Shown: piece by piece, positions 29,042 through 62,147 of the stretch
How positions within the stretch are numbered: the first letter of the stretch is position 1
How the letters are laid out: the number at the start of each line of letters is the position of its first letter
Sequence record: LC788709.1
DNA length: 64,000 nucleotides
Source of the DNA: Escherichia coli phage Shin27
Direction: 5' to 3' (one strand)
Notes under the pieces: model-generated
Databases searched by the model: none
What the model saw: only the letters and a program-made list of their open reading frames with translations
Told to the model about the DNA's origin: nothing
Program-made: the position numbers and the translations under genes

Positions 29042-30706
29042 TTATGCAAAGAATTTACCGTTTTTGAAATCAATCAAAGTACGTTGCCCGTTTGCATAGG
29101 TAATTAAATGCGTTTGCGTCCAGCTTGACGCGCCCACGTTGTAGCCCATATCAAGGGAACCAGCAACGCCAGCGGTATAAACGCCGCCGTAAATGCTAGC
29201 CGTGTGAGTGTGACCAGTGTTAAGGCGTCCCAACTTTTTAAACTGCTTAGGATTGCCCCGACTGCCGTTAATGCCATTGTGACCATGTACGCCGCATTCA
29301 ATGCCAGCGATTTTAAAGGACTGGTCAGTAGTCAAAAAAATGGCGTTAAATTCGCATCCTGCAACGTTTCTAAGCGCATAATCTAACACGTTAAAGGTAT
29401 CATCCTTTTCAGCAATAGCGGCGTAAATCGCAGCGTTTAGACGGTGATACAGTTCCGCGTTTGCGGGATCATCTTTAATGTTTGCGTTACGATCATCTAA
29501 CCAGCGGGATAATGCTAAATCATGGTTAGATTCCACAATGATTGTTTGACTAAAATCACGTTCCATAGATTCTAATACGCGTCCAGTATCGATAAGATCA
29601 TCAATAACTTTATCACGTCCGGCGGCGTATTGTTTCGCAAGGAATACACCACTAGCGCGGTTATGATGGTTACGCGATGTAAAATCATGCACGTCATGAA
29701 TAAATTGATATTTCGGTTTAAGAATATCAAGCAAGCTGTTTTCACTAGCCCATGAAGCGACGGCGCAATCATCATCTAATTTTTCGGCGTGAATATCGCC
29801 ATATTGCAAGCCTAGAACATGATCGGACGTTTCAAAACATCCGGTAGGCATAGCGCAAACATTCAAATCATAGAACATTCCGCTTTCATCCATTGTTTCA
29901 ATCTGGCGAGCATAAAATTCGCCGTCGTCGTCGAACTCTACCAGCAAAGCGCCATAATTATGTAAAGCCTCAGCTTTTTGACCTGCTTTCTGCTGAATGT
30001 AGTTTTTAAGCGTAGCCGTTCCGGTTGAATACATACGGCACACTACTTCACCTTTTAACGCTGGCACACTTTCAGCGGTAATTTTAGCGTGACCAATTGC
30101 CAGACCTTCAATATTTAAAGCCGTGGCGGTTTCTGCGAATCCTGAAAGCGGGTAATCTGCCGTTGGTAAAACGTTAATTTCAGCCATGAAAGCAAAGCGG
30201 CGGTTATTTAAAAATACGTTTTTATCACAAACATATTTATCAAATGCGGGATCGTATTTAATACCGTTTGCCCCTTCCCCGTTCTGAAATCCGTTTTTGT
30301 TGTAAATGAATTTGCTAACAAGTAATTCAGCGCCGCAATATTCAGCGAATTTTTCCAGACTTGCTAAAAAGTTTTTATGCGGGAAAGTATTATTTTGAAT
30401 CGACGTTAGAATAAAACGGCGACCGGACTTAACTTCCCATTGCTCAACGGTGCTAGAAACAATTCCCGCCGCCTCTGGGCGATCATCGTTTTTAATCGCC
30501 TTTTCGGCTTTTGCCGCTTTCGGTTTCGCTGGTTTATTTGCTTCCAGCCAGTCACAAATTGCGGTCGAATGTTTCGGCGTACCATAAACAGCTTTTGAAA
30601 TATCGTCGCAAACTTCCAATTTAGTAGCGCGTAAACGCTTACCGTAGAAGTTAAAATCTGCGGCCATTTTCAAAATTTGAGCTTGTTTTTCTGCGGAAAT
30701 ATTCAT
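29042..30706 (-). CDS. A1: pre-early protein A1 (metallophosphoesterase/Mre11-like fold)
   Basis: 554-aa ORF with calcineurin-like motifs in order: GDIHAE, IHDVHD, ESNHD, GVHGHNG, GHTHT. Size and position match T5 A1. Confidence 0.85.
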   Translation of the reverse strand: MNISAEKQAQILKMAADFNFYGKRLRATKLEVCDDISKAVYGTPKHSTAICDWLEANKPAKPKAAKAEKAIKNDDRPEAAGIVSSTVEQWEVKSGRRFILTSIQNNTFPHKNFLASLEKFAEYCGAELLVSKFIYNKNGFQNGEGANGIKYDPAFDKYVCDKNVFLNNRRFAFMAEINVLPTADYPLSGFAETATALNIEGLAIGHAKITAESVPALKGEVVCRMYSTGTATLKNYIQQKAGQKAEALHNYGALLVEFDDDGEFYARQIETMDESGMFYDLNVCAMPTGCFETSDHVLGLQYGDIHAEKLDDDCAVASWASENSLLDILKPKYQFIHDVHDFTSRNHHNRASGVFLAKQYAAGRDKVIDDLIDTGRVLESMERDFSQTIIVESNHDLALSRWLDDRNANIKDDPANAELYHRLNAAIYAAIAEKDDTFNVLDYALRNVAGCEFNAIFLTTDQSFKIAGIECGVHGHNGINGSRGNPKQFKKLGRLNTGHTHTASIYGGVYTAGVAGSLDMGYNVGASSWTQTHLITYANGQRTLIDFKNGKFFA

Positions 30707-30814
30707 AACTAAATCAACTCCTATAAAGGGATAAATATTAATACTGGCAATATTGCCAAATATAACGCCTTGCCTGAAGTGAGGACAATTTAAAAGGCGT
30801 TATAATTTGCAATA

Positions 30815-31060
30815 TTATTCTAGAATTGGCATAAGACTAGAACTAAAACCGCAACTAATAGCCAGCGTTAAAAATATAATCGCTAGATATTTTTGTTTAT
30901 TAGCTTGACGTTTAAACATATCAGCGGCATAAGCTGAATTAATGCCGATAATAGAGATTATATATTTGCCGTAATTAAATATAAATATAGCGGCAACTAT
31001 AAATAAACCTAAAATAAACGCTTCACTAGGGAAGAAAATCATTTTAATAACTCCGGTCAA
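30815..31060 (-). CDS. small membrane protein
   Basis: 81-aa ORF with two or three hydrophobic segments, located between A2 and A1. Confidence 0.45.
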   Translation of the reverse strand: MTGVIKMIFFPSEAFILGLFIVAAIFIFNYGKYIISIIGINSAYAADMFKRQANKQKYLAIIFLTLAISCGFSSSLMPILE

Positions 31061-31100
31061 AGGGAAATTATAGCGGGGAATATTCCCCGCTAATTAGAAT

Positions 31101-31517
31101 TTATTCACCTGCGGCCTGTTTTACTTCCTCCGCTACGCCTAACAATTGCGCTACGGCGTCCAGCGTTTCCAGTTTAGCACTTTCAAGGCTTGCCAGATCG
31201 TCGGCATCTTTTACGATACCTGAATCAATGGCGTGTTTAGCGATGACGCGCACATAGTGAGCTTTACGAATTGAGCTACCGCCGCCAACTTTGCGAGGTT
31301 TATCGCTTTTCTGATAGGCTTTTGCGCTTGTCAGTTTAGAACGTACAGACACCGGACTAGCAGCACCAACGGCGGCGGCAATTTCTTTCAGGCCGTCACT
31401 GTTAGCAAATTCACTTCCGCTTTTAGCGACCATTTCAGAATACATAGAAACAGCTTTTTCGGTGTTTTCTTCGTTCCAAGAGAATTTTGCGGTTTTTTCG
31501 GTTTTAACGTTAGACAT
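31101..31517 (-). CDS. A2: pre-early protein A2-like (probable DNA-binding)
   Basis: 138-aa ORF immediately upstream of A1 in the transcription direction. Assignment rests on recalled T5 order and size only. Confidence 0.6.
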   Translation of the reverse strand: MSNVKTEKTAKFSWNEENTEKAVSMYSEMVAKSGSEFANSDGLKEIAAAVGAASPVSVRSKLTSAKAYQKSDKPRKVGGGSSIRKAHYVRVIAKHAIDSGIVKDADDLASLESAKLETLDAVAQLLGVAEEVKQAAGE

Positions 31518-31805
31518 AATTTAATACTCCATTCAATTATTAATTAAGGGATTATGATTAACTAAATGTTAATCGCTATATATTCTATTAGCTAGAATAT
31601 ATATAACGGAAACATTTTATTTTTATTTCCAGTTTCAAGCGGTTTATTAATTCCCGAATATATTTATATTCTCACCTTACCCGGCTTGCCAGAGAATTAA
31701 TAAGGCAACATTGTATTTATACGCTGTTTATTATTCCGTTCACGCTAGGAATATTTCGAGTTATCTTTATTGCCTAACTAAGCATGATATGTAAGGCGCA
31801 TTAAT

Positions 31806-32057
31806 TTATGCGATAGCTTGCCATTTATCATCTTTCTGAATGATTTTTACAACGTCGCCAGATTTAACACGGACGTTATAAATAGGCTTGCCGTGGTTAC
31901 TGCGTTCCGTTTCCGCATAGACCGCTTCAATCTTATCAAAGGGATCAAGCGCCGCACCTTTAATACGTTCAGCTTTTCCAGTTAATTCATCCGTTTTAGT
32001 AACGAAAGGAATAAAAACGGATTGACCTACTTTCGGTGCGGTGATAACGTTTTGCAT
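31806..32057 (-). CDS. hypothetical pre-early protein
   Basis: 83-aa ORF with GGAG-type SD context (CCGGAGTATTAAAAATG on the coding strand). Confidence 0.5.
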   Translation of the reverse strand: MQNVITAPKVGQSVFIPFVTKTDELTGKAERIKGAALDPFDKIEAVYAETERSNHGKPIYNVRVKSGDVVKIIQKDDKWQAIA

Positions 32058-32191
32058 TTTTAATACTCCGGTTTATTGGGGGATTATTCCACAATAGCGC
32101 CTCGATACTTTGAAACGCTATTAGATTATAATCCGCTAGGAGTTAGCCTAAACATTACCGTTTTTCCAAATTGTTAAAGAGCAGTTACTAC

Positions 32192-32489
32192 GGGGAACAT
32201 CTTAAAACCTATCGGCTAGCGTGTCAATCGTTTTTTAAACTTTTTTCGATTTGATGGGAGTTATATAAATCAATCATTATATTACGCCACACCATTTCCA
32301 GCCCTTGTTGCTTGCCTTTCTTGTATTGCTTGAATCTGTATTTTACAGATCGTTGCGCTACTGTCAACAAATTTTTTGTTCTGCTATCAAGCGACTTGAT
32401 AGGCTTGCCAGTGATCAAAAGCGTTTGTTTCATATCGTCGATTCCTTATAATATCTAAGTTTACCGCCGATAGGCTTTAAGATGTTCCC
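32192..32489. repeat. 24/25-bp inverted repeat pair flanking a 69-aa ORF
   Basis: GGGGAACATCTTAAAACCTATCGGC (32192-32216) versus GCCGATAGGCTTTAAGATGTTCCC (32466-32489), with one mismatch. Confidence 0.8.
32224..32433 (-). CDS. small basic protein flanked by 24-bp inverted repeats
   Basis: 69-aa Lys/Arg-rich ORF (RSVKYRFKQYKKGKQQ). The inverted repeats lie at 32192-32216 and 32466-32489. Confidence 0.4.
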   Translation of the reverse strand: MKQTLLITGKPIKSLDSRTKNLLTVAQRSVKYRFKQYKKGKQQGLEMVWRNIMIDLYNSHQIEKSLKND

Positions 32490-32840
32490 TAATTTTTAAA
32501 GAGCATGGCAGGGTTTTGAAAGGTCAAACAGACTGTCAATCGCTGTTATCCCCGCCGTGTAGTTCGTCATTGCCGCCCTACGTGATAAATAATAGGAGAA
32601 TACCGAGAAGGGCGCAAGCGTATTTTTGTAAAGAAACGTAAAGAAAACCACTACTCGCAAACGTCCAGCGGCGCATTAAATTTAATGAAACGGGCGCGCG
32701 AATAACACCAAAACAACCATTTTAGCAAGTAATTTTTTTCATTTATATTTGCTTTGCCATACTTGACAAAATCTAAAATCCTCGTGGTGAGGTTTTCTCG
32801 GTGTATCCCTTATGATTGCCTATCCTTTCCTTTGAGGCGC

Positions 32841-32867
32841 TTAGAATGCGTTACAGAGCGTTTTAGA
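32841..32867 (+). repeat. 27-bp perfect direct repeat, copy 1
   Basis: TTAGAATGCGTTACAGAGCGTTTTAGA is also present at 37084-37110. Confidence 0.85.
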
Positions 32868-33246
32868 CCCTGTTAATAACTTATACAAAAAGCAAAAATG
32901 AAATTTAATGAGTTATCCACTTGATTTTTCAAAAAAGTATTTTCTGCTGTTATTTTTCATTGACAAATAAGTTTAGACGTGCATTTATTGGTTAGCAGAC
33001 TAATAATCGCTAGGAGGATAATCACGCTGGTGGATTGTAACAGCCGAAACAGTTAGCGGACTATTAATACTTTAAAAACCTATTAGCCAACTAACTATTT
33101 CATAATATATAATATACACATAAATTAATGAGAAATAATAACTATGAGAAACTATCGGGCTAAGTGAGAACCACTATCATTTAGGTTATGCACAAAGCTA
33201 TCCACAGCACAAAATAACTTGACGCAATAGGCGACGTTTTGGCGAC

Positions 33247-33255
33247 TTATCCACA
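33247..33255 (+). promoter_or_regulatory. DnaA box (perfect TTATCCACA)
   Basis: Exact 9-mer. Near-matches are CTATCCACA at 33198-33206 and TTATCCACT at 32913-32921. Confidence 0.6.
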
Positions 33256-33275
33256 GACTTATATACAGGTTATCC

Positions 33276-33295
33276 TACTGTATAAATATACAGGG
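33276..33295. promoter_or_regulatory. LexA (SOS) box-like palindrome
   Basis: TACTGTATAAATATACAGGG has the CTGT-N8-ACAG core and is AT-rich, adjacent to DnaA boxes. Confidence 0.55.
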
Positions 33296-33543
33296 TAGAA
33301 TGGTAGCAGTAACAACCGCAATCAAATTTAAGCGGCCTAGAACGCGCTACACGGCGTTTTCTCACTGCTACCCTTATTATAATAAAGCCTTGTGTACGCT
33401 TACAGAGAGCTAGAAATAGAAAACGCGCGATTATCATAAAAACGGGCAGTAGGCAAGGAATAAAAAACCTTTTCTTTTTTTCTTGCCCCTAGCGAACAAT
33501 TATCTATATCATTCACTCACCGATTAACGAGGGAGACAAAGAA

Positions 33544-34545
33544 ATGTCTACTGTAAGAATTGCAGTACCAGCAAACGCAACTATTATTAAAGGTAGTTTG
33601 CGCAACCTGCTAGATGGTAGTAGTGCGGCAAGTATTCAGCACACCGCCGCAATGGTTGAAAAAATTCACGAGGATATTTTAGATAATAATGATACTCATT
33701 ATTCAGTCGATGATTTCACGCTATTACTAGACCAGACAAGGGCGCTAGTAATTTTCAACCGTGATTATCACATTTTCCGTAATAGTCAGGGAACTGATAT
33801 TGATTTTATCATTGTTGGTTATAGTGAGTCTCATAGTGGTTACATTGCGCGATTATATAACGTGCAAGAAAAAGAGCAGGTAACAGCAACAAAAGTAAAT
33901 AATATCAGATTGGATAGTGTCGGATCGTTATTAAATAGTATCTGGCGTGAATTATCATCCAGTTATAAAGGTGCTGATAGTGACGCAATCGAAACAACTG
34001 GCGTATTGTGCTTTGAACGCGCTAGCGGTAACATGTTGATCCCTAACGATTATTTAGAGTATGGGAATGAATCAAACGTTGCAAACGCTGGATTTACACT
34101 TTTACCGCTTGACAATGTAGCAAAACAGGCTGTAAACTCTCAAACTTCAAGCGCAAATGCGCAAACTACTGAAAATAAAGGAAATATTATGTCTAAAGTA
34201 TCTTCTATCGTTGCCGCTAATAAATCCGCCGTTGTTAACGCTGCTAAACTGGAAGCGGGTAAAATTGCACTGACTCAAATCACAAAAGTAGCGGCGAAAA
34301 AAGCGCCGTTTATGATTAAAGGTTATATCGATACGCCGATCGGTCGCGTAGTGATCGCTAACCTGTTAAGCGTAGCGGTTGACCAGTACGCCCCGACTAA
34401 TGCGAAAGCGAAAGCGGTAGCAGGCGCGGCAATGGAAGCGGCAATGCTGGAAATGGTACAGAGTTTCAATATTGCGGAAATGATCGATGAAATGGTAAAA
34501 GGTATTGACATTTCTACTTTTACCACTAACACCGAAAGTGAGTAG
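33544..34545 (+). CDS. hypothetical pre-early protein (largest gene of plus-strand cassette)
   Basis: 333-aa ORF with a GAGGGAG SD 8 nt upstream. The C-terminal third is an Ala/Lys-rich amphipathic region. A hairpin follows the stop. Confidence 0.65.
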   Translation: MSTVRIAVPANATIIKGSLRNLLDGSSAASIQHTAAMVEKIHEDILDNNDTHYSVDDFTLLLDQTRALVIFNRDYHIFRNSQGTDIDFIIVGYSESHSGYIARLYNVQEKEQVTATKVNNIRLDSVGSLLNSIWRELSSSYKGADSDAIETTGVLCFERASGNMLIPNDYLEYGNESNVANAGFTLLPLDNVAKQAVNSQTSSANAQTTENKGNIMSKVSSIVAANKSAVVNAAKLEAGKIALTQITKVAAKKAPFMIKGYIDTPIGRVVIANLLSVAVDQYAPTNAKAKAVAGAAMEAAMLEMVQSFNIAEMIDEMVKGIDISTFTTNTESE

Positions 34546-34612
34546 TAATAACTAGCGGGGATTATTTCCCCGCGTTACTATTTCCCTGTTAATTGTTAGG
34601 AGACTACTTATT

Positions 34613-34921
34613 ATGCAACTGAATCAAATCATGTTGACGCAATTAGCCGAAAAAATGCCGAATAGCCCCCATGTTAATTATTCGGACGATCAAAGCAATA
34701 TTCCTATATGGGAAAAACAAGGCCGTCCCTTTTTATGGGAACATGTAGAAAGCGCGAATAATTATCATGCTTTCTTTGATCGTGGTTATGGCTGGCTATG
34801 TATTTTTGTAGACGAAACTTTGCTGGATTATGGAATGGATGAAATAGTCCGTGATGACGTAATTTTCTTAAATAAAGGATTTTACAGTGTAGCAAATTCT
34901 CTTTATTTCCCTGCTAATTAA
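34613..34921 (+). CDS. hypothetical protein
   Basis: 102-aa ORF with a TAGGAG SD. Confidence 0.55.
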   Translation: MQLNQIMLTQLAEKMPNSPHVNYSDDQSNIPIWEKQGRPFLWEHVESANNYHAFFDRGYGWLCIFVDETLLDYGMDEIVRDDVIFLNKGFYSVANSLYFPAN

Positions 34922-34934
34922 TAGGAGGCTAGTT

Positions 34935-35429
34935 ATGTCAGAAGAAAAATATGGCTTTTCACTAGAAAGTGTGAATGAAGCTAAACACGATATGATAGTT
35001 TTAGTTGATTGTCATACTGGCTATTGCGGGGAAGGCTGGACGGAGGAACATTTTGTTCCCGCTGGCTGTGATCTGGACGCTTTCGCAAACGAACACGCAT
35101 ATGATAATGCTTCTCGTTTCGGTAGTGATGGGGAAGAAGATGAAGAAACAGGGGAATGGATTGAAAATGATAATGTTTATGCGAGTATTTATCATTATCA
35201 ATTGAGTAAATCCGGTATTTATGTAAATGGCGGCGATCCTATTAATACCGTTATGAAACTAATTATTAAACACGGTGGCGCGGAAATAATTGGTAACAAG
35301 GCGTTATTATATGCAAATCGATTAAAACAGCTTGTTTATATTCCTGATAATTCCCGTTGGGATGAATATGCCGTTTTACAGAAAGAACTAAAACGCTGTT
35401 TCGGTGTGGAAGCATTAGAAATAGTCTAA
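34935..35429 (+). CDS. hypothetical acidic protein
   Basis: 164-aa ORF with a TAGGAGG SD and an acidic tract (GSDGEEDEETGEWIENDN). A terminator follows. Confidence 0.6.
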   Translation: MSEEKYGFSLESVNEAKHDMIVLVDCHTGYCGEGWTEEHFVPAGCDLDAFANEHAYDNASRFGSDGEEDEETGEWIENDNVYASIYHYQLSKSGIYVNGGDPINTVMKLIIKHGGAEIIGNKALLYANRLKQLVYIPDNSRWDEYAVLQKELKRCFGVEALEIV

Positions 35430-35443
35430 TGTAAAGTTTTGTA

Positions 35444-35472
35444 AAGGTCGCCTATTATGGCGACCTTTTTTG
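35444..35472 (+). terminator. Rho-independent terminator
   Basis: AAGGTCGCC-TATTAT-GGCGACCTT followed by TTTTGTT. Confidence 0.75.
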
Positions 35473-35479
35473 TTATAAT
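35471..35479 (+). promoter_or_regulatory. possible extended -10 promoter
   Basis: TGTTATAAT lies immediately after the terminator at 35444-35472. No good -35 is present. Confidence 0.3.
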
Positions 35480-35536
35480 GCCTTTACACCGAAACGGTGG
35501 GTTGAAAATTTTCCCTGATTTCTAGGAGGCGTTAAA

Positions 35537-35764
35537 ATGGTACATTCATCATCTTCTGCAATTTTTAACGGTATGGAATGGGTATCCGTTCCCGCTATTG
35601 TCAGCGTTATGGTTTCTGAGTTCGGCATAGGTAAAACTTATGTTACCATTCAGGGGCTTTACGACAATGACAAGATTGACCAGCAAACCGCCGGATTTTT
35701 GCTGGATGAATTGAAAGCTAACCATTGCACTAAAAAGCAAGCGGCAAAAATTGTTTTAATGTAA
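35537..35764 (+). CDS. hypothetical protein
   Basis: 75-aa ORF with a TAGGAGG SD. Confidence 0.5.
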   Translation: MVHSSSSAIFNGMEWVSVPAIVSVMVSEFGIGKTYVTIQGLYDNDKIDQQTAGFLLDELKANHCTKKQAAKIVLM

Positions 35765-35810
35765 TTAATAAAGGGGGTATATTATCCCCTAATTTCTAGG
35801 AGCTAATAAA

Positions 35811-35960
35811 ATGGTTATTTTTCGATCTATTCTAGCTAGTATCTTGGGCGCTATTTTATCACTGTTTGTAATAGCTTTCGGCGTTAACGTGGTTATTATT
35901 GGAGCAGGTATCGCTGGGTTTTCTTACTTGTTAGGCTGTATGACTGGTAAAGGGGAATAA
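35811..35960 (+). CDS. small double-pass membrane protein (49 aa)
   Basis: MVIFRSILASILGAILSLFVIAFGVNVVIIGAGIAGFSYLLGC... with a TAGGAG SD. It is below the ORF-track cutoff. Confidence 0.4.
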   Translation: MVIFRSILASILGAILSLFVIAFGVNVVIIGAGIAGFSYLLGCMTGKGE

Positions 35961-35962
35961 AA

Positions 35963-36175
35963 ATGTTAAAGAATGTTTCCCTTGCCCGTTCTAAAGGTTT
36001 TAAGCTGGTGGATGTTAACACGTTCGAGCGTCCAGATTGTAAAATCGAATATGTAGCACGCAACAAAAACGCTTTCCGTGTTACTGAAAAGAAATTTGAC
36101 AAGCGCGGAAATTTGGTAGCCGAAACGGTTAAACACTTTGCTACTTTTTACGCTGCGTTTCGTGGGGTATTATGA
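35963..36175 (+). CDS. hypothetical basic protein
   Basis: 70-aa ORF that starts 2 nt after the preceding stop. Confidence 0.5.
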   Translation: MLKNVSLARSKGFKLVDVNTFERPDCKIEYVARNKNAFRVTEKKFDKRGNLVAETVKHFATFYAAFRGVL

Positions 36176-36273
36176 GATCCTTATATATTGCTCTAGCGTT
36201 TGCTACCGTTGGCGTTGTTTGCTCATTCGCTGCATTTGTTCTAAAAATGTACCTGATATTTTCCCAGCTTTAG
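36172..36273 (+). CDS. small membrane peptide (33 aa)
   Basis: MRSLYIALAFATVGVVCSFAAFVL... It has an ATGA start/stop overlap with the upstream ORF. Confidence 0.3.
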   Translation: MRSLYIALAFATVGVVCSFAAFVLKMYLIFSQL

Positions 36274-36284
36274 GAGCTTGACAA

Positions 36285-36632
36285 ATGGTTATTTATGAGG
36301 GTAATCGCTTTGTTACTAATTGCCGTCCGGCATTATTAGCAAACTATTTAAATCAGCTTTCCCCTGTTTATAAAGGCGTGGTTAACATCTATGAAGGCAA
36401 AGCGCACTATAGAATTAATGCCGTTGTCGCTCGCGAGCTTGCCTTTCAGTTTCTTACTTTTAACTCATGCGATATTCAGGTTATGGGTGAGTCTTTGATT
36501 GCAGAAAATGAAGATGAATTTATTAACATTTTCCGCAAAGTATGTACAGAGCGCCTGATTATGAAAGGCGCATATATTCAATCAACCGCTGATAGTATTG
36601 AAACAGCGTTTCGAAAAATTGTAAATGAATAG
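36285..36632 (+). CDS. hypothetical protein
   Basis: 115-aa ORF with a TAGGAG SD. Confidence 0.55.
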   Translation: MVIYEGNRFVTNCRPALLANYLNQLSPVYKGVVNIYEGKAHYRINAVVARELAFQFLTFNSCDIQVMGESLIAENEDEFINIFRKVCTERLIMKGAYIQSTADSIETAFRKIVNE

Positions 36633-36755
36633 CTGGTGGCGTAAAACGCAATCCCATAAATCTAATAATACCGCTGGGAAACATTCCCAGCGTTTACGAT
36701 TTGGGAACGGCTTCACAATGTTAATAATAATCATTCTCATTCTAGGAGCAATGGC

Positions 36756-36995
36756 ATGGCTGTAAGAATTTTACGATATGTAGAACGTAAAGAAACCGAT
36801 ATTATGCAGCATCATTTAACTGATGGGCAATACGCGCAATTTTTAGAAATGCAGAAAAGCGGAGCTAGTACGGCGGCGCTAGGGGCGTGGATCAATTCAG
36901 TTTCAACGTGTACGCATTTTGATTCATACGGGTATACGCCAGCCGAAACCGTCCAGATCTTTGACGACTACGAGAAGGAATACATAGCAGACTAA
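36756..36995 (+). CDS. hypothetical protein (last gene of cassette)
   Basis: 79-aa ORF with a TAGGAG SD. An AATCATTCTCATT operator-like half-site lies at 36729-36741 and a terminator at 37001-37031. Confidence 0.5.
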   Translation: MAVRILRYVERKETDIMQHHLTDGQYAQFLEMQKSGASTAALGAWINSVSTCTHFDSYGYTPAETVQIFDDYEKEYIAD

Positions 36996-37000
36996 TAATA

Positions 37001-37031
37001 GCGGGGCGCAACTATCGGCCCCGCCTTTTCT
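37001..37031 (+). terminator. Rho-independent terminator at the end of the plus-strand cassette
   Basis: GCGGGGC-N10-GCCCCGC followed by CTTTTCT. Confidence 0.65.
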
Positions 37032-37083
37032 GCCTGCAAACAAATTTCCCCTTATTAAAATACCTCCTCCAAAAATAAACGCG

Positions 37084-37110
37084 TTAGAATGCGTTACAGA
37101 GCGTTTTAGA
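37084..37110 (+). repeat. 27-bp perfect direct repeat, copy 2
   Basis: Identical to 32841-32867. It lies 31 nt upstream of the near-consensus LexA box. Confidence 0.85.
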
Positions 37111-37140
37111 GCTATATTAGAGTTATTCACTACGTAGGAA

Positions 37141-37160
37141 TACTGTATATTTATACAGTA
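37141..37160. promoter_or_regulatory. LexA (SOS) box, near-consensus
   Basis: TACTGTATATTTATACAGTA differs at one position from the E. coli consensus TACTGTATATATATACAGTA. Confidence 0.65.
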
Positions 37161-37168
37161 GAATAACC

Positions 37169-37177
37169 TGTGGATAA
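37169..37177 (-). promoter_or_regulatory. DnaA box (perfect, reverse orientation)
   Basis: The plus strand reads TGTGGATAA. An 8/9 box, AGTGGATAA, lies at 37181-37189. Confidence 0.6.
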
Positions 37178-37241
37178 GTCAGTGGATAACGCCTCAAAAT
37201 CGCTAGGATTTTGTCAAGTCAAATCGTGCTGTTAATAAACC

Positions 37242-37250
37242 TGTGGATAA
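37242..37250 (-). promoter_or_regulatory. DnaA box (perfect, reverse orientation)
   Basis: The plus strand reads TGTGGATAA. Confidence 0.6.
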
Positions 37251-37283
37251 CTTAAATAGCAGTGTTTCTCACTTCGCTTTCTA

Positions 37284-37413
37284 AATGCGAATCATTCTCA
37301 TTATGCGACTCATTCGTATTCAATTCTGTAAATGATAATCATTCCCATTCCACTTTCTAAATGCGAGTAGTTCTCATTCGCATTCAACTTCTCAAATGCG
37401 AATCAATCTCATT
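37284..37413. repeat. five copies of a 19-bp imperfect palindrome (AATGCGAAT-N-ATTCTCATT family)
   Basis: Copies lie at 37284-37302, 37303-37320 (degenerate), 37331-37349, 37360-37378 and 37395-37413. A lone half-site lies at 36729-36741. Confidence 0.75.
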
Positions 37414-37432
37414 ATCAGTTGCATTTCGGCAG

Positions 37433-37463
37433 GCAGGGCATTTTCTATTTGCCCTGCGCTTTT
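37433..37463 (+). terminator. terminator-like hairpin inside the repeat region
   Basis: GCAGGGC-N11-GCCCTGC followed by GCTTTT. Confidence 0.4.
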
Positions 37464-38065
37464 GTGCAAATCCGACATCTGCCCCCACGGATTACGTGCC
37501 AGCGTGCATGTGCGAATCCGACAATTTTTGGTAGTGTGCAAATCCGATGGGAAATATTTTTTATATGTGCGAATCCGACAATGAATTTTCCTAAAAACTC
37601 CAGCAATCCGCAACTGCGATGCAATCCAGCTGGATTTACTAGAGTATGCGCAAATCCGACATGAGTTTATTTGTGCAAAACCGACAAGATTTTTGTGACT
37701 TCGATGAGAGGGTGTGTGATTGTGAGGGTTTGGGGAGAAGTGCGAATCCGATGAGATTTTGGGAGGAACTACGGAAGGAGCAGCGGTGATGGTGCTTTAG
37801 CACCGGTTTGCTGCATTTTTGAGGATAATGCGGGATGTTTTGGCTAGAATTGAGATTAGGGGAGATAAAGCGAAATTTTATTAGCAAAATGGGGCAAAAT
37901 CGCTTGACAAGTGAAAATTCCTGTGGCTCTAAAAAACTCAGGCAAATATGGGCCTTCGGCCCGAAATAATGCTGCTATTTTCAGTGTTCCTAAAAACTTT
38001 GGAGACTCCTATCAATGTGCAAATCCGACCATAAATTTCTAGAAACACAGTGTGCAAATCCGATA
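37464..38065 (+). repeat. iteron-like array: nine same-orientation copies of GTGC(A/G)AATCCGA(C/T)N
   Basis: Copies start at 37464, 37510, 37536, 37567, 37648 (variant), 37673 (variant), 37740, 38017 and 38052. Spacing is irregular and no ORF is supported. Confidence 0.85.
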
Positions 38066-38224
38066 GCAATTTCCAGAAATGTGTTTTGGAAAAATGTCTC
38101 CTAGAAATAACCGCCCTCCCTATAACCGCCCTGTATTAAACCGCCTATTGCTGGAGTTTCTAGGAACATGAAAACCGCCTGAGTTGGCGAGAGTTTTCCT
38201 AGAAACTTAGGAGTCTACTAGAAA
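38036..38224. repeat. six TTCTAGAA-type palindromes interleaved with four (T/A)AACCGCC(C)T direct repeats
   Basis: The TAG-centred sites lie at 38036-45, 38071-80 (degenerate), 38098-107, 38157-66, 38195-205 and 38214-24. The AACCGCC repeats lie at 38108, 38123, 38137 and 38171. Confidence 0.75.
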
Positions 38225-38492
38225 GTGTTGTGCTATCCTAGCAGATGAGCGGCAACAGGTGTATCATCTTGAACATTAATTTATCTATTCAACAGTATTA
38301 GTTTTTATATAAGTATAAGATCCCCAGGGGATTGTGAGAGATGCTCCACCCCTGGGATACGAATTGCGTGAGATGGTACAAAACTTCTGAAGATTTCCCT
38401 AGCCCTCCGACAAGCTACGGGGGAAATAGAAGTTTCCCATCCACCATCCGTATCCGGGTGGATCTCTTTATTCTATGTTATTTCATAGAGTT

Positions 38493-38521
38493 ATTATAAC
38501 ATGCAGAAATCATAACGTCAA
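38493..38521 (-). promoter_or_regulatory. sigma70-type promoter reading into ORF-free hairpin-rich DNA
   Basis: Coding strand reads TTGACG, 17 nt, TATAAT, just downstream of the stop of the 296-aa gene. Confidence 0.5.
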
Positions 38522-38528
38522 GTAGAGT

Positions 38529-39419
38529 TTATTCATCGAACATGAGATTTCCTTTCATCCCCATCTCCGCATACTCCATGAGTTCTCCTAGGGATCTCAC
38601 AGGGTAATCTACTTTACTGAAGTTATCATAGATCTTACATGAACTCTCGTACAACTCGTTAGGTATCTGCAATTTGTTATCAGTTAGCTTCTCATAACGT
38701 GTAGAAGATTTTGTACCTTCAAACAGAACTGCAATAACTGCGGCGATTTGTTTGGTAAGATCATCTGCTCCTAGAATTATTCTATTAATAGCAATCGTTA
38801 CTTCATGCTTAGGTTTCACAGGTGGAAGGATAGGCTTGAGATCCTTAGGTAAAGGTTCTGTTCCTAGGAATCCTTCTTTTGTGCGGAACCAATAATTATC
38901 TAGATCAGATATTGTCTTAGACTTATTCCATATAGTGAAGCAAGGTTTATTTCCTTCACGATCTCTGTATTCACGAACTGGAAGATAATGATCAGGGAAT
39001 GAGTTGAGTGCATCATGCATTGGTGAGCCTGTCTTTTTAAATGACAAACCGTACAACTCATTATAATTCATAACTTCATCTTCATAAACATGGAAATCTT
39101 TATATGCTGGAAGATTAAACCATTCCTGAAGTGAATGAACTGCAAAACGTTGTGCCCAAGCATGCATCACAAGAACTCTGTACTCTTTTACTTCATCTTT
39201 TGGAGAAGTACCTCTAACTGTTCTAGCTGACCGAATACAGAACATCTCAACAACACGTCTCTCGTTTAAAGAAAGCTCAGAGTAACAACGTTCATGGCAA
39301 CCTTCTAGCATTTCTAGAAGTTCACGTAGTTTCTCTACATCGACCGGTGGAAAAGGTCTCTCTTCCACCGCGAATTTACCAACTACACCTTTCGGCTTTC
39401 TATTACTATAAAATCCCAT
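38529..39419 (-). CDS. hypothetical early protein
   Basis: 296-aa ORF, the last gene of the leftward early transcription unit. Confidence 0.6.
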   Translation of the reverse strand: MGFYSNRKPKGVVGKFAVEERPFPPVDVEKLRELLEMLEGCHERCYSELSLNERRVVEMFCIRSARTVRGTSPKDEVKEYRVLVMHAWAQRFAVHSLQEWFNLPAYKDFHVYEDEVMNYNELYGLSFKKTGSPMHDALNSFPDHYLPVREYRDREGNKPCFTIWNKSKTISDLDNYWFRTKEGFLGTEPLPKDLKPILPPVKPKHEVTIAINRIILGADDLTKQIAAVIAVLFEGTKSSTRYEKLTDNKLQIPNELYESSCKIYDNFSKVDYPVRSLGELMEYAEMGMKGNLMFDE

Positions 39420-58377: not shown

Positions 58378-58454
58378 TGGGGTGGCTAGTGGAATTCGAA
58401 TCCACATAGGCCTGATTCACAATCAGGATCATTAACCAATTATGATATAGCCAC
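58378..58454 (-). tRNA. tRNA-His (GUG)
   Basis: Acceptor GTGGCTA/TAGCCAC, C73, arm CCTGA-TTGTGAA-TCAGG, T-arm GTGGA-TTCGAAT-TCCAC, CCA encoded. Confidence 0.8.
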
Positions 58455-58699
58455 AATTGAATACTATTAGGGGATGATCAGTCCTCCATTTGGCCGTCTA
58501 AGGTACCAAAGTTAGTCATTCTGCGCACAGGTTTTTCTCCTGATTCTTTATTGCGAATGCTCTCTAATAATACTCAATTGTGGCGGCTCTCCGAAACTCT
58601 TCTACTCTAGCCTTAGCAGCTTACTCCCGAACGCATGTCGGGAAAGTCTTACTAAGAACATCAAATAGCACCGTTACACTTTGAGCCATTAATGTATCA

Positions 58700-61545: not shown

Positions 61546-61577
61546 AATATTCTTTGTTAACTCACTTTATAAAATAT

Positions 61578-61606
61578 ATTATACAGAGAATTAAGCTAAA
61601 TAGCAA
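61578..61606 (-). promoter_or_regulatory. T5 early-type sigma70 promoter directly upstream of tRNA-Pro/tRNA-Met
   Basis: TTGCTA, 17 nt, TATAAT. The tRNA-Pro 5' end lies ~26 nt downstream of the predicted start. Confidence 0.65.
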
Positions 61607-61623
61607 CTACATTTTTTAATAAA

Positions 61624-61745
61624 TTTACTTATTGCGTAGGCCACCTGGAGGGTTCAAGCCCCACGGCTGACAAAGAAGTTTGCGAGACTTCTCTTAAACG
61701 CCAGAATAGACCCGCCGATCTATCGGAACCTACTCAATAAGTAAA
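61624..61745. ncRNA. structured ORF-free element closed by a 17-bp helix
   Basis: TTTACTTATTGCGTAGG (61624-61640) pairs 16/17 with CCTACTCAATAAGTAAA (61729-61745). Inside are a 6-bp stem with a 7-nt loop (AGAAGT-TTGCGAG-ACTTCT) and a GGTTCAAGCC T-loop-like motif. Confidence 0.3.
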
Positions 61746-61860
61746 CTTTCGTTTACCTACACCTACCTGGTCGGGAGGATTTTCAGCGACTAGAACCGGC
61801 CGGAAACTCATCGCCTTGTTTATCTAGGAGTCCGTTCTCTAGGAAGCAGAAACCTAAATT

Positions 61861-61934
61861 TGGTGCGGTCGGAGGGAATCGAACCCTCAACTTCTGGTTG
61901 GCAACCAAAAATTATACCTTTTAACTACGAACGC
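61861..61934 (-). tRNA. tRNA-Gly (GCC)
   Basis: Acceptor GCGTTCG/CGACCGC (one mismatch), arm TTTGG-TTGCCAA-CCAGA, T-arm GAGGG-TTCGATT-CCCTC, CCA encoded. Confidence 0.75.
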
Positions 61935-61943
61935 ATAATAAGT

Positions 61944-62065
61944 CAATCTAGGCAGGACTTGAACCTGCTATCACTTGTGCGGATTTACGAGAACCATTCT
62001 TTCACTCGAATCGAACGAGCTTCTACCCTCGGCAAGCTGGTGTCCCCTCTCCACCACGCTAGAAT
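61944..62065 (-). ncRNA. oversized (~122 nt) tRNA-like element
   Basis: Canonical T-arm GCAGG-TTCAAGT-CCTGC is followed by CTAGATT, which pairs 6/7 with ATTCTAG at the far end. Internal hairpins are TGGTG-N9-CACCA and CTCG-TTCGATT-CGAG. No CCA and no credible ORF. Confidence 0.3.
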
Positions 62066-62147
62066 GATAATTAGTGCCTGCTCCTTTGAATCAAGAAGTC
62101 CACCCCGGACTTTGGGTCTTTGCAGTACATCACGCTGCTCTGATGTT

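What the first reader, a model, noticed from the sequence alone, without database searches (positions are those of the whole stretch)
61624..61745. 122-nt element closed by a 17-bp helix with anticodon-arm-like and T-loop-like hairpins
Seen: TTTACTTATTGCGTAGG pairs 16/17 with CCTACTCAATAAGTAAA. The enclosed 88 nt hold a 6-bp stem with a 7-nt loop (AGAAGT-TTGCGAG-ACTTCT), a CCGA-N4-TCGG hairpin and a GAGGG-TTCAAGC-CCCAC T-arm-like motif that reads canonically on the plus strand. It lies between tRNA-Gly(GCC) and the promoter at 61578-61606. Strand cannot be decided from pairing alone. Inference: this is a cloverleaf-like RNA with an extended closing stem, possibly a tRNA mimic or a processing platform.
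Basis: seen in the sequence. Interest (0 to 1): 0.5.

Follow-up and report, generated by a model that had tools for sequence, protein, structure and literature searches.

The report
Phage T5 stable RNA IV gene
The 122-nt element is the copy, in a T5-like Salmonella phage, of the small stable "RNA IV" annotated in phages T5 and BF23: a minus-strand RNA with a four-way fold, apparently cut out of a tRNA transcript inside its long closing helix, whose function is still unknown.

Summary
The window is 100% identical to Salmonella phage bux, a T5-like phage. The arms pair 16/17 and extend to 20 nt at 90%. The element aligns at 93% to the T5 gene rnaIV ("stable RNA with unknown functions", 103 nt), also annotated in BF23, in the same place: between a tRNA group and promoter P13a.

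The strand can be decided, and it is the minus strand, like all 21 tRNAs. On 24 distinct variants the five-helix fold is 97% paired on minus against 82% for its plus-strand mirror. Eleven of 47 pairs show changes on both sides, against at most 3 in slid controls; a distant homolog in Pectobacterium phage DU_PP_V raises this to 21.

The plus-strand "T-loop" belongs to the bux variant of a variable hairpin. ARAGORN and Rfam find no tRNA or other family here.

The T5/BF23 mature ends (nt 11-113) lie inside the closing helix, next to a mismatch kept in all T5-like variants. T5 RNA III and RNA 2H end the same way, with exact 2-nt 3' overhangs. I infer excision by host RNase III; this was not tested.

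The RNA is known, so novelty is low. Its function remains open; a viable T5 deletion mutant lacks it.

The parts
61633..61735 (-). Predicted mature RNA IV: 103 nt, nt 11-113 of the element, where nt n = window 61746-n.
   Evidence: Coordinates transferred from the rnaIV features annotated in T5 (NC_005859 32838-32940) and BF23 through a 93% alignment and the covariance-model alignment. The ends were not measured in this phage.
61736..61745 (-). 5' arm of the outer closing helix (UUUACUUAUU, nt 1-10). It is removed from the mature RNA.
   Evidence: Pairs with 61624-61633. The sequence is invariant apart from one U-to-C variant in 2 of 24 variants. The 5' arm is identical in DU_PP_V.
61624..61633 (-). 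3' arm of the outer closing helix (AAUAAGUAAA, nt 113-122). The first A (61633) is the annotated 3' end of the mature RNA. The arm lies 14 nt upstream of the -35 hexamer of the next promoter.
   Evidence: In DU_PP_V two A-to-G changes give U.G pairs, which keep pairing only on the minus strand.
61734..61735 (-). nt 11-12, opposite nt 111-112 (61634-61635). One of the two positions is always non-Watson-Crick in T5-like variants. The mature 5' end maps here.
   Evidence: nt 11/112 is unpaired in 21 variants and nt 12/111 in 8, never both. Both positions are paired only in DU_PP_V. End positions.
61725..61733 (-). Inner closing helix and its extension, 5' strand (GUAGGUUCC, nt 13-21). It pairs with nt 101-110 (61636-61645), with U103 bulged.
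   Evidence: G16-C107 becomes A-U in the Eps7 clade, and U19.G104 becomes U-A in two variants. GUAG/CUAC becomes GACG/CGUC in DU_PP_V.
61636..61645 (-). Inner closing helix and its extension, 3' strand (GGUGGCCUAC, nt 101-110).
   Evidence: Same evidence as the 5' strand.
61705..61724 (-). P2: an 8-bp hairpin with a GGCG tetraloop (nt 22-41).
   Evidence: two pairs changed on both sides (U-A to C-G, G-C to C-G); five with DU_PP_V. The GGCG loop is kept in DU_PP_V.
61667..61704 (-). P3-P4 arm (nt 42-79). P3 is CUGGC/GUCAG. An internal loop (G/A/U)UUUAA follows. P4 is 8 bp and closes the 7-nt loop CUCGCAA (61680-61686).
   Evidence: P3 is 100% paired, with G-C to A-U and G.U to G-C or A-U changes. 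P4 has 3 pairs changed on both sides and many G.U pairs. The loop is invariant in 23 of 24 variants, and CUCGCA is kept in DU_PP_V.
61648..61662 (-). P5: a short variable hairpin (nt 84-98).
   Evidence: the stem is kept with 3 of 5 pairs changed on both sides, but the loop and stem sequences differ between clades. The bux variant has a C.C mismatch at the loop-closing pair.
61747..61760 (-). Upstream block GUAGGUAAAC-GAAA. It can pair with the 5' arm to form a 10-bp hairpin with a GNRA loop, so it competes with the closing helix.
   Evidence: -9.6 kcal/mol, z = -4.3. Conserved wherever the spacer exists, including DU_PP_V, and absent in T5 itself. The closing helix wins in the full-length fold.
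61578..61606 (-). Promoter of the next transcription unit, the homolog of T5 P13a. It lies immediately downstream of RNA IV on the minus strand.
   Evidence: TTGCTA-17-TATAAT; aligns with the annotated T5 promoter P13a.

Best explanation
The element is the rnaIV gene of a T5-like phage.

Shown or annotated:
- It is read on the minus strand, as the last gene of a tRNA transcription unit: tRNA-Asp, tRNA-Lys, RNA2, tRNA-Gly, a spacer, then RNA IV. It sits directly in front of the next promoter.
- The transcript folds into a closing helix of roughly 21-24 bp that leads to a four-way junction with three hairpins. P2 carries a GGCG tetraloop. The P3-P4 arm carries a CUCGCAA loop. P5 is short and variable.
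- In T5 and BF23 the mature RNA is annotated as nt 11-113 (103 nt).

Inferred:
- A double-strand-specific cut in the middle of the closing helix, beside a conserved mismatch, releases the mature RNA. This is most likely host RNase III followed by removal of one 3' nucleotide.
- The same cut separates the upstream tRNA transcript from read-through into the next unit.
- The excised core persists as a stable RNA because it is compactly folded.
- The conserved loops suggest the core has a further role. That role is unknown, and the RNA is dispensable in laboratory E. coli.
For: Identity:
- The window is 100% identical to phage bux.
- 175 of 188 nt match T5 across promoter P13a and rnaIV.
- rnaIV is annotated as a stable RNA on the tRNA strand in T5 and BF23, with the same neighbours.

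Strand and fold:
- All 21 tRNAs are on the minus strand.
- MFE is -47.0 kcal/mol on minus against -37.9 on plus.
- On a MAFFT alignment of 24 variants, 97.0% of cells are paired and 11 of 47 pairs changed on both sides, against 1-3 in slid controls. The plus-strand mirror is only 82% paired.
- With a 51-bit homolog from another Demerecviridae subfamily, 21 of 47 pairs changed on both sides.
- Independent MFE folds of the T5, Eps7 and DU_PP_V versions give the same architecture.

Processing:
- The annotated ends fall inside the helix.
- In T5, the ends of RNA III and RNA 2H sit in about 20-bp closing helices with exact 2-nt 3' overhangs. RNA IV has a 1-nt overhang. RNA I has a 4-nt GCCA tail like a tRNA.
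- No intrinsic terminator is predicted between RNA IV and the promoter.

Dispensability:
- The viable T5Mos deletion 30661-38625 spans rnaIV (PMC11464382).
Against: - No RNA data exist for this phage. The ends are transferred from GenBank annotation of T5 and BF23, and I could not read the primary papers.
- The annotated RNA IV overhang is 1 nt, not the 2 nt that RNase III leaves.
- DU_PP_V lacks the mismatch.
- The outer 10 bp never covary; they are simply invariant. Their pairing is therefore supported only by complementarity and by two U.G changes in DU_PP_V.
- Most of the covariation comes from two or three lineages (the Eps7 clade, DU_PP_V and the L136 type), so the number of independent events is small.
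- Nothing here identifies a function for the excised RNA.
Confidence: 0.85

Rival explanations
1. RNA IV is only a processing or insulating module. The long helix is an RNase III site that ends the upstream tRNA transcript and separates it from the next unit. The excised core is a stable by-product with no trans function.
For: - It sits at the 3' end of a transcription unit with no predicted terminator.
- The ends lie inside the helix.
- A viable T5 deletion mutant lacks it.
- At the neighbouring RNA III locus the closing helix is kept while the interior is replaced by unrelated sequence. This suggests that, there at least, the helix matters more than the content.
Against: - A plain hairpin would do the job.
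- Three internal hairpins are maintained by compensatory changes.
- Two loop sequences (GGCG and CUCGCA) are kept between two phage subfamilies whose stems have diverged almost completely.
Confidence: 0.3
2. RNA IV is a minus-strand tRNA mimic or decoy. The mature RNA offers an acceptor-like stem of 7 positions (one of them the mismatch) plus a 4-bp extension, a one-nucleotide 3' tail, and a 7-nt loop CU-CGC-AA with the anticodon-loop pattern (Y-U-NNN-R-N). It would be recognised by a tRNA-binding enzyme or by a host tRNA-cleaving defence nuclease.
For: - The topology is a four-way junction, with a 4-nt linker in the position of a tRNA variable loop.
- The P4 loop is nearly invariant.
- Other genes in the T5 tRNA region counter tRNA-targeting defences: T5 tRNA-Lys against PARIS (PMC11464382).
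- Neighbouring T5 RNAs 1, 2 and 3 are annotated as tRNA-like.
Against: - ARAGORN and Rfam RF00005 do not detect it, even at E up to 10.
- There is no T-loop, no D-loop GG and no encoded CCA.
- P2 is an 8-bp tetraloop hairpin, and the anticodon-like arm is 13 bp long.
- In DU_PP_V the P4 loop is 9 nt.
Confidence: 0.1
3. One reading: a plus-strand RNA with a canonical T-arm (GGGTTCAAGCCCC) and an anticodon-like arm.
For: The plus strand also folds better than shuffled sequence (z = -4.2). The covariance model gives weak plus-strand scores of 26-28 bits, as expected for a largely palindromic structure.
Against: - Every gene in this region, and the flanking promoter, is on the minus strand.
- 190 G.U cells become A.C on the plus strand, so pairing drops to 82%.
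- The T-loop sequence is GGCTACCAACCCC in T5 and differs again in other clades.
- The model scores 161 bits on minus against 26 on plus.
Confidence: 0.02
4. It is a DNA-level or transcription-termination element: a protein-binding palindrome next to the promoter, or an intrinsic terminator for the upstream unit.
For: The outer arms are invariant in sequence rather than covarying. The 3' arm lies in the UP-element region of promoter P13a.
Against: - No G+C-rich stem plus T-run is found.
- The 10-mer AATAAGTAAA is not enriched in the window: 13 matches against 13.3 expected.
- In DU_PP_V the arm is conserved without the T5-type promoter sequence downstream.
- G.U pairs and compensatory changes in the inner helices point to selection at the RNA level.
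Confidence: 0.03

Closest known systems
Bacteriophage T5 and BF23 RNA IV (gene rnaIV; T5s05 in NC_005859, FIU71_gs04 in NC_042564)
   Same: Orthologous. 93% identity to T5. Same strand, same neighbours (promoter P13a and tRNA-Pro on one side, RNA2 or tRNA-Gly on the other), same length and same fold.
   Different: The bux variant differs at nt 11-12 and 111 (mismatch A.G rather than A.C) and in the P5 hairpin loop. As in BF23, but unlike T5, a tRNA-Gly(GCC) and a 114-nt spacer lie between RNA2 and RNA IV. The bux record itself does not annotate the gene.
T5 stable RNAs III and 2H (rnaIII, rna2H)
   Same: Same kind of object in the same tRNA region: structured RNAs closed by a helix of about 20 bp, with annotated mature ends inside that helix. 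Their functions are also unknown.
   Different: No sequence homology; the RNA IV covariance model hits only one locus in the window. Their ends have the exact 2-nt 3' overhang, whereas RNA IV has 1 nt.
Phage T4 species 1 and species 2 RNAs (rnaC, rnaD)
   Same: Small stable RNAs of unknown function, encoded next to phage tRNA genes on the same strand.
   Different: Not homologous: no model hit at those loci with filters off. T4 rnaC carries a genuine T-arm (CCGGGUUCGAAUCCCGG) and short terminal pairing, not a 20-bp closing helix.
RNase III processing stems (flanks of 16S and 23S rRNA precursors, phage T7 early-mRNA sites, the T4 tRNA precursor)
   Same: From textbook knowledge of these sites, not tested here: a long helix formed by sequences flanking a stable RNA, cut on both strands with a short 3' overhang, often beside an internal mismatch. 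The excised RNA is then trimmed.
   Different: Dependence on RNase III was not tested here. The annotated overhang is 1 nt.
tRNA (Rfam RF00005)
   Same: Four-way junction topology, terminal helix formed by the 5' and 3' ends, a 7-nt loop with a Y-U-NNN-R-N pattern, and co-transcription with tRNAs.
   Different: Fails both tRNA detectors. It has no T-loop, no D-loop and no CCA, and the arm lengths are different.

Membership tests
T5/BF23 RNA IV (rnaIV) | Sequence homology to the annotated T5 and BF23 rnaIV genes | tested here: met
   175 of 188 nt identical to T5 across P13a and rnaIV. The covariance model scores 161 bits for the window, 165 for T5 and 170 for BF23.
T5/BF23 RNA IV (rnaIV) | Same genomic position and strand: tail of a tRNA unit, directly upstream of promoter P13a and tRNA-Pro | tested here: met
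T5/BF23 RNA IV (rnaIV) | A discrete stable RNA of about 103 nt in infected cells | not testable with these tools
   Only GenBank annotation of T5 and BF23 is available. There are no RNA data for bux.
tRNA / tRNA-like | Recognised by tRNA models (ARAGORN, Rfam RF00005) | tested here: not met
   No call at 61624-61745 on either strand, even at E up to 10.
tRNA / tRNA-like | Conserved T-loop (UUCRANY) closing a 5-bp stem | tested here: not met
   The TTCAAGC loop exists only on the plus strand of the bux variant. The homologous minus-strand loops are UGGUA, UGAUA, UCAUA and UGA.
tRNA / tRNA-like | 3' NCCA end, encoded or added | tested here: not met
   The gene reads A-AUA after the stem. T5 RNA I, by contrast, ends in GCCA. 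Post-transcriptional CCA addition cannot be tested here.
RNase III substrate | About two turns of double helix around the cleavage site | tested here: met
   From the cut there are 10-13 bp towards the base of the helix and about 11 bp towards the junction.
RNase III substrate | Staggered ends with a 2-nt 3' overhang | tested here: inconclusive
   The annotated T5 ends give 1 nt for RNA IV and exactly 2 nt for RNA III and RNA 2H.
RNase III substrate | Processing lost in an rnc mutant, or cleavage by purified enzyme | not testable with these tools
   Needs an experiment.
Intrinsic terminator | G+C-rich hairpin followed by a U tract | tested here: not met
   No terminator-like site at the element. 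The helix base is A+U-rich and is followed by UUUAUUAAAAAA.
T4 rnaC/rnaD | Homology in sequence and structure | tested here: not met
   The best model hits in the T4 tRNA region score at most 10 bits and none covers rnaC or rnaD.
Any Rfam family (Y RNA/YrlA, 6S, tmRNA, ribozymes and others) | Match to a curated covariance model | tested here: not met
   Nothing overlaps the core of the element at gathering score or at E up to 10. One sub-threshold match (S774, 26.7 bits against a gathering score of 48) ends at 61626 and covers the promoter region.

The most novel reading that the evidence does not exclude
RNA IV may be a dedicated trans-acting phage RNA rather than a processing by-product. Its GGCG and CUCGCA loops are invariant between two Demerecviridae subfamilies. 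They could bind a host or phage factor, for example as a decoy for a tRNA- or RNA-targeting defence nuclease or for an RNA-modifying enzyme. They could also form a loop-loop contact (GCG with CGC) that shapes a specific three-dimensional mimic. The conserved upstream hairpin that competes for the 5' arm could then gate how much RNA IV is released.
Probability: 0.15. Interest if true: 0.7.

Novelty: already known. Interest (0 to 1): 0.3.

Why it matters
As a discovery it adds little, because the gene is already annotated in the T5 and BF23 records. It is still useful in three ways.

1. Most of the roughly 400 T5-like genomes that carry it leave it unannotated or place spurious ORFs over it. No Rfam family exists, so the structure and covariance model built here could fix that annotation.

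2. It gives RNA IV a secondary structure backed by covariation. It also gives a simple, testable processing model that T5 RNAs III and 2H share.

3. The T5 tRNA region has recently been shown to carry counter-defence functions (PMC11464382). That makes its unexplained stable RNAs reasonable candidates for a fresh look.

Tried and rejected
- **Rfam:** nothing at the element, at gathering thresholds or at E up to 10.
- **IMG/VR scan with TCCGANNNATCGGCGGG:** too unspecific; nearly all hits were chance matches. The tighter 21-base pattern returned only 16 T5-like contigs, apparently known isolates for the most part.
- **Outer-helix pattern scans:**
  - Metagenomes: many chance hits in A+T-rich DNA. 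The model confirmed only one new T5-like contig.
  - IMG/VR: the model confirmed only T5-like contigs and DU_PP_V again.
  - Bacterial and archaeal genomes: the model confirmed none.
- **Klebsiella T5-like phage Sealy:** no RNA IV in its tRNA region with the model.
- **blastn with the DU_PP_V element:** no further relatives of that type.
- **T4 rnaC/rnaD:** not homologous.
- **E. coli genomes:** no similarity or long complementarity. The search is insensitive to short seed pairing.
- **Coding hypothesis:** the 25-aa ORF at 61734-61811(-) that runs into the 5' arm is not conserved; BF23 has AUA in place of AUG, and other phages have different upstream sequence. ORFs annotated over the element in TrudiRoth and SB13 are therefore probably spurious.
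- **DNA motif hypothesis:** AATAAGTAAA is not enriched in the window.
- **Kissing interaction between the P2 loop (GCG) and the P4 loop (CGC):** the loop variants seen (GGAG, GGUG, CUAGCAA) do not covary, so there is no support.
- **CCGA/UCGG hairpin:** one A-U to G-C change in three related sequences. The same changes also fit P2, and the hairpin is absent from DU_PP_V.
- **Literature searches:** no paper on RNA IV in the library.

Full report
**What the window is.** The region is 100% identical to Salmonella phage bux (Epseptimavirus, Demerecviridae), a T5-like phage. ARAGORN finds 21 tRNA genes in the window, all on the minus strand. The element at 61624-61745 lies between tRNA-Gly(GCC) (61861-61934, minus) and a sigma-70 promoter on the minus strand, TTGCTA-17-TATAAT at 61606-61578. 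That promoter drives tRNA-Pro and tRNA-fMet.

**Checking the observation.**
- The two arms pair at 16 of 17 positions. The repeat finder extends them to 20 nt at 90% complementarity, 88 nt apart. The pair is the sixth of 20 inverted repeats of at least 15 nt within 250 nt in the 64 kb.
- Both strands fold better than shuffled sequence. The minus strand is the better of the two: -47.0 kcal/mol (z = -4.95) against -37.9 (z = -4.2).
- The T-arm-like stem GAGGG/CCCAC contains an A.A mismatch.

**What it is.** blastn against the T5 tRNA region aligns window 61562-61749 to T5 at 93% identity (175 of 188 nt). The aligned stretch covers the annotated promoter P13a and the misc_RNA rnaIV: "RNAIV, stable RNA with unknown functions", NC_005859 32838-32940, 103 nt, on the tRNA strand. 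The BF23 tRNA-region record annotates the same gene with the same neighbours as in this window: RNA2, tRNA-Gly, spacer, RNA IV, P13a, tRNA-Pro. The element occurs in about 406 phage records, almost all Salmonella or Escherichia T5-like phages. It is nearly always unannotated, and sometimes a "hypothetical protein" is laid over it. The finding is therefore the ortholog of a known but functionally unexplained phage RNA.

**Strand and structure.** I collected 27 distinct variants and aligned 24 of them with MAFFT. Numbering runs along the minus strand, with nt n = window 61746-n. The fold is:
- P1: nt 1-21 with 101-122. It has a mismatch at nt 11 or 12 and a bulged U103.
- P2: nt 22-41, 8 bp, GGCG tetraloop.
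- P3: nt 42-46 with 75-79.
- P4: nt 52-74, 8 bp, loop CUCGCAA.
- P5: nt 84-98, a short hairpin.

On this alignment, which was not fitted to the structure, 97.0% of cells are paired. Eleven of 47 pairs show changes on both sides, against 1-3 when partners are slid by 1-3 columns. G.U pairs make up 190 of 1120 cells. The mirrored plus-strand structure is only 82% paired.

A covariance model built from the alignment scores 161 bits on the minus strand of the window and 26 on the plus strand. It finds no second copy in the window. It does find a 51-bit homolog (E = 2e-9) in Pectobacterium phage DU_PP_V, which belongs to another subfamily, Mccorquodalevirinae. That homolog sits in the same context, after tRNA-Lys, an RNA2-like gene and a decayed tRNA-Gly. 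Nearly every stem in DU_PP_V has a different sequence, yet its own MFE fold has the same architecture. The T5 and Eps7 versions fold the same way. With DU_PP_V included, 21 of 47 pairs show changes on both sides (that alignment is fitted to the model). Most of the covariation comes from a few lineages, so the number of independent events is modest.

**What is conserved and what is not.** The conserved parts are:
- the outer 10 bp (UUUACUUAUU / AAUAAGUAAA), which are invariant rather than covarying;
- the GGCG loop of P2;
- the CUCGCA(A) loop of P4, including in DU_PP_V.

Its sequence is GGGGCUUGAACCCU in bux, GGGGUUGGUAGCCUC in T5, CGUUUGAAGCG in another clade and GAGUUGAUAGCUC in Eps7. The T-loop look is an accident of one variant on the non-transcribed strand.

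The CCGA-N4-UCGG hairpin competes with P2. It has one A-U to G-C change in three related sequences. Those changes also fit P2, and the hairpin does not exist in DU_PP_V, whereas P2 does. ARAGORN, the Rfam tRNA model and all other Rfam families fail to match the element.

**How it is probably made.** This part is inference. The mature ends annotated in T5 and BF23 are nt 11 and nt 113. Both lie inside the closing helix, beside a position (nt 11/112 or 12/111) where exactly one non-Watson-Crick pair is kept in all 29 T5-like variants. I folded the T5 precursors of the other annotated stable RNAs and compared their ends:

| T5 RNA | Where the annotated ends lie | 3' overhang |
|---|---|---|
| RNA III | inside a closing helix of about 20 bp | exactly 2 nt |
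| RNA 2H | inside a closing helix of about 20 bp | exactly 2 nt |
| RNA IV | inside the closing helix | 1 nt |
| RNA I | short terminal stem | 4 nt (GCCA, like a tRNA) |

About 11 bp lie on the junction side of the RNA IV cut and 10-13 bp on the other side. No terminator is predicted between RNA IV and the promoter. The simplest reading has four steps:
1. The tRNA unit is transcribed through RNA IV.
2. Host RNase III cuts the helix on both strands.
3. One nucleotide is trimmed from the 3' end.
4. The folded core survives as a stable RNA.

The 1-nt overhang and the absence of any experiment here keep this step at roughly 55% confidence.

**An extra feature.** Wherever the spacer is present (bux, BF23, Eps7 and others, and DU_PP_V, but not T5 itself), the 5' arm is preceded by GUA(A/G)GUAAAC-GAAA. 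This block can pair with the 5' arm as a 10-bp hairpin with a GNRA loop: -9.6 kcal/mol, z = -4.3. It would form first during transcription and competes with the closing helix, although the closing helix wins at equilibrium. Whether this matters for processing is unknown.

**Function.** The function is unknown. The viable T5Mos mutant carries a deletion of 30661-38625. That range spans rnaIV in either T5 numbering, so the RNA is dispensable on laboratory E. coli (PMC11464382; coordinates). Maintenance of three internal hairpins and two loop sequences across subfamilies argues that the core is more than a spacer between the helix arms. A by-product role cannot be excluded. At the neighbouring RNA III locus the closing helix is conserved while the interior differs completely between T5 and bux. 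A tRNA-mimic or decoy role, resting on the anticodon-like CU-CGC-AA loop and the counter-defence content of this region, is possible but has no direct support.

**Comparison with known systems.** By homology and synteny the element is a member of the T5/BF23 RNA IV family. It is the same kind of object as T5 RNAs III and 2H. It is analogous, but not homologous, to T4 species 1 and 2 RNAs. It resembles a tRNA only in topology. Its closing helix resembles RNase III processing stems such as those flanking rRNA precursors; that comparison rests on textbook knowledge and was not tested here.

**Verdict.** It is wrong on the strand, the T-arm and the resemblance to tRNA. Novelty is "already known". 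Interest is modest at 0.3. The residual value lies in annotation, a covariation-supported structure, a testable processing model, and an RNA that still has no assigned function in a region now linked to counter-defence.

Noticed in passing
window 61942-62069 (minus strand): Homolog (89% identity) of T5 rna2, annotated there as a "tRNA-like stable RNA with unknown functions". It has a good T-arm (GCAGGTTCAAGTCCTGC) but is not called by ARAGORN or the Rfam tRNA model.
   Followed up: partly
window 58450-58584 (minus strand): Homolog of the T5 rnaIII locus. The outer closing helix (CACAAUUG.../...CAAUUGUG, arms 21 nt at 90%) and its flanks are conserved. The roughly 100-nt interior is unrelated to that of T5, as if a cassette had been swapped inside a conserved processing helix.
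   Followed up: partly
window 61785-61815 (minus strand), in the spacer between tRNA-Gly(GCC) and RNA IV: A conserved hairpin. The stem GGCGAU/GUCGCU becomes GCCACG/CGUGGU or GGCAAG/CUUGCU in other phages, including DU_PP_V. It encloses a conserved loop AGUU(U)CCGGCCG(G)UUC and is preceded by a conserved AAACAAG. This may be a further small structured RNA element.
   Followed up: partly
window 61747-61760 with 61737-61746 (minus strand): Conserved 10-bp GNRA-loop hairpin (GUAGGUAAAC-GAAA-GUUUACUUAU) that competes with the RNA IV closing helix for the 5' arm. The upstream block and the 3' arm are direct repeats of TAAGTAAA.
   Followed up: partly
L001 (T5, NC_005859) 1285-1390 and 2809-2980: The annotated ends of T5 RNA III and RNA 2H sit inside closing helices of about 20 bp with exact 2-nt 3' overhangs, an RNase III-like signature. 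The ends of RNA I give a 4-nt GCCA tail like a tRNA.
   Followed up: yes
L145 317-487 (TrudiRoth bas30_0114) and L004 450-578 (SB13 HWC37_gp193): "Hypothetical protein" CDSs are annotated on top of the RNA IV gene in other phage records. The reading frames are not conserved, so these are probably spurious.
   Followed up: partly
L148 6926-6942 (DU_PP_V, minus strand): In the distant homolog the P5 hairpin has the loop CUCAUAA. From memory, this is the anticodon-loop sequence of tRNA-Met and tRNA-fMet; it may be a coincidence.
   Followed up: no
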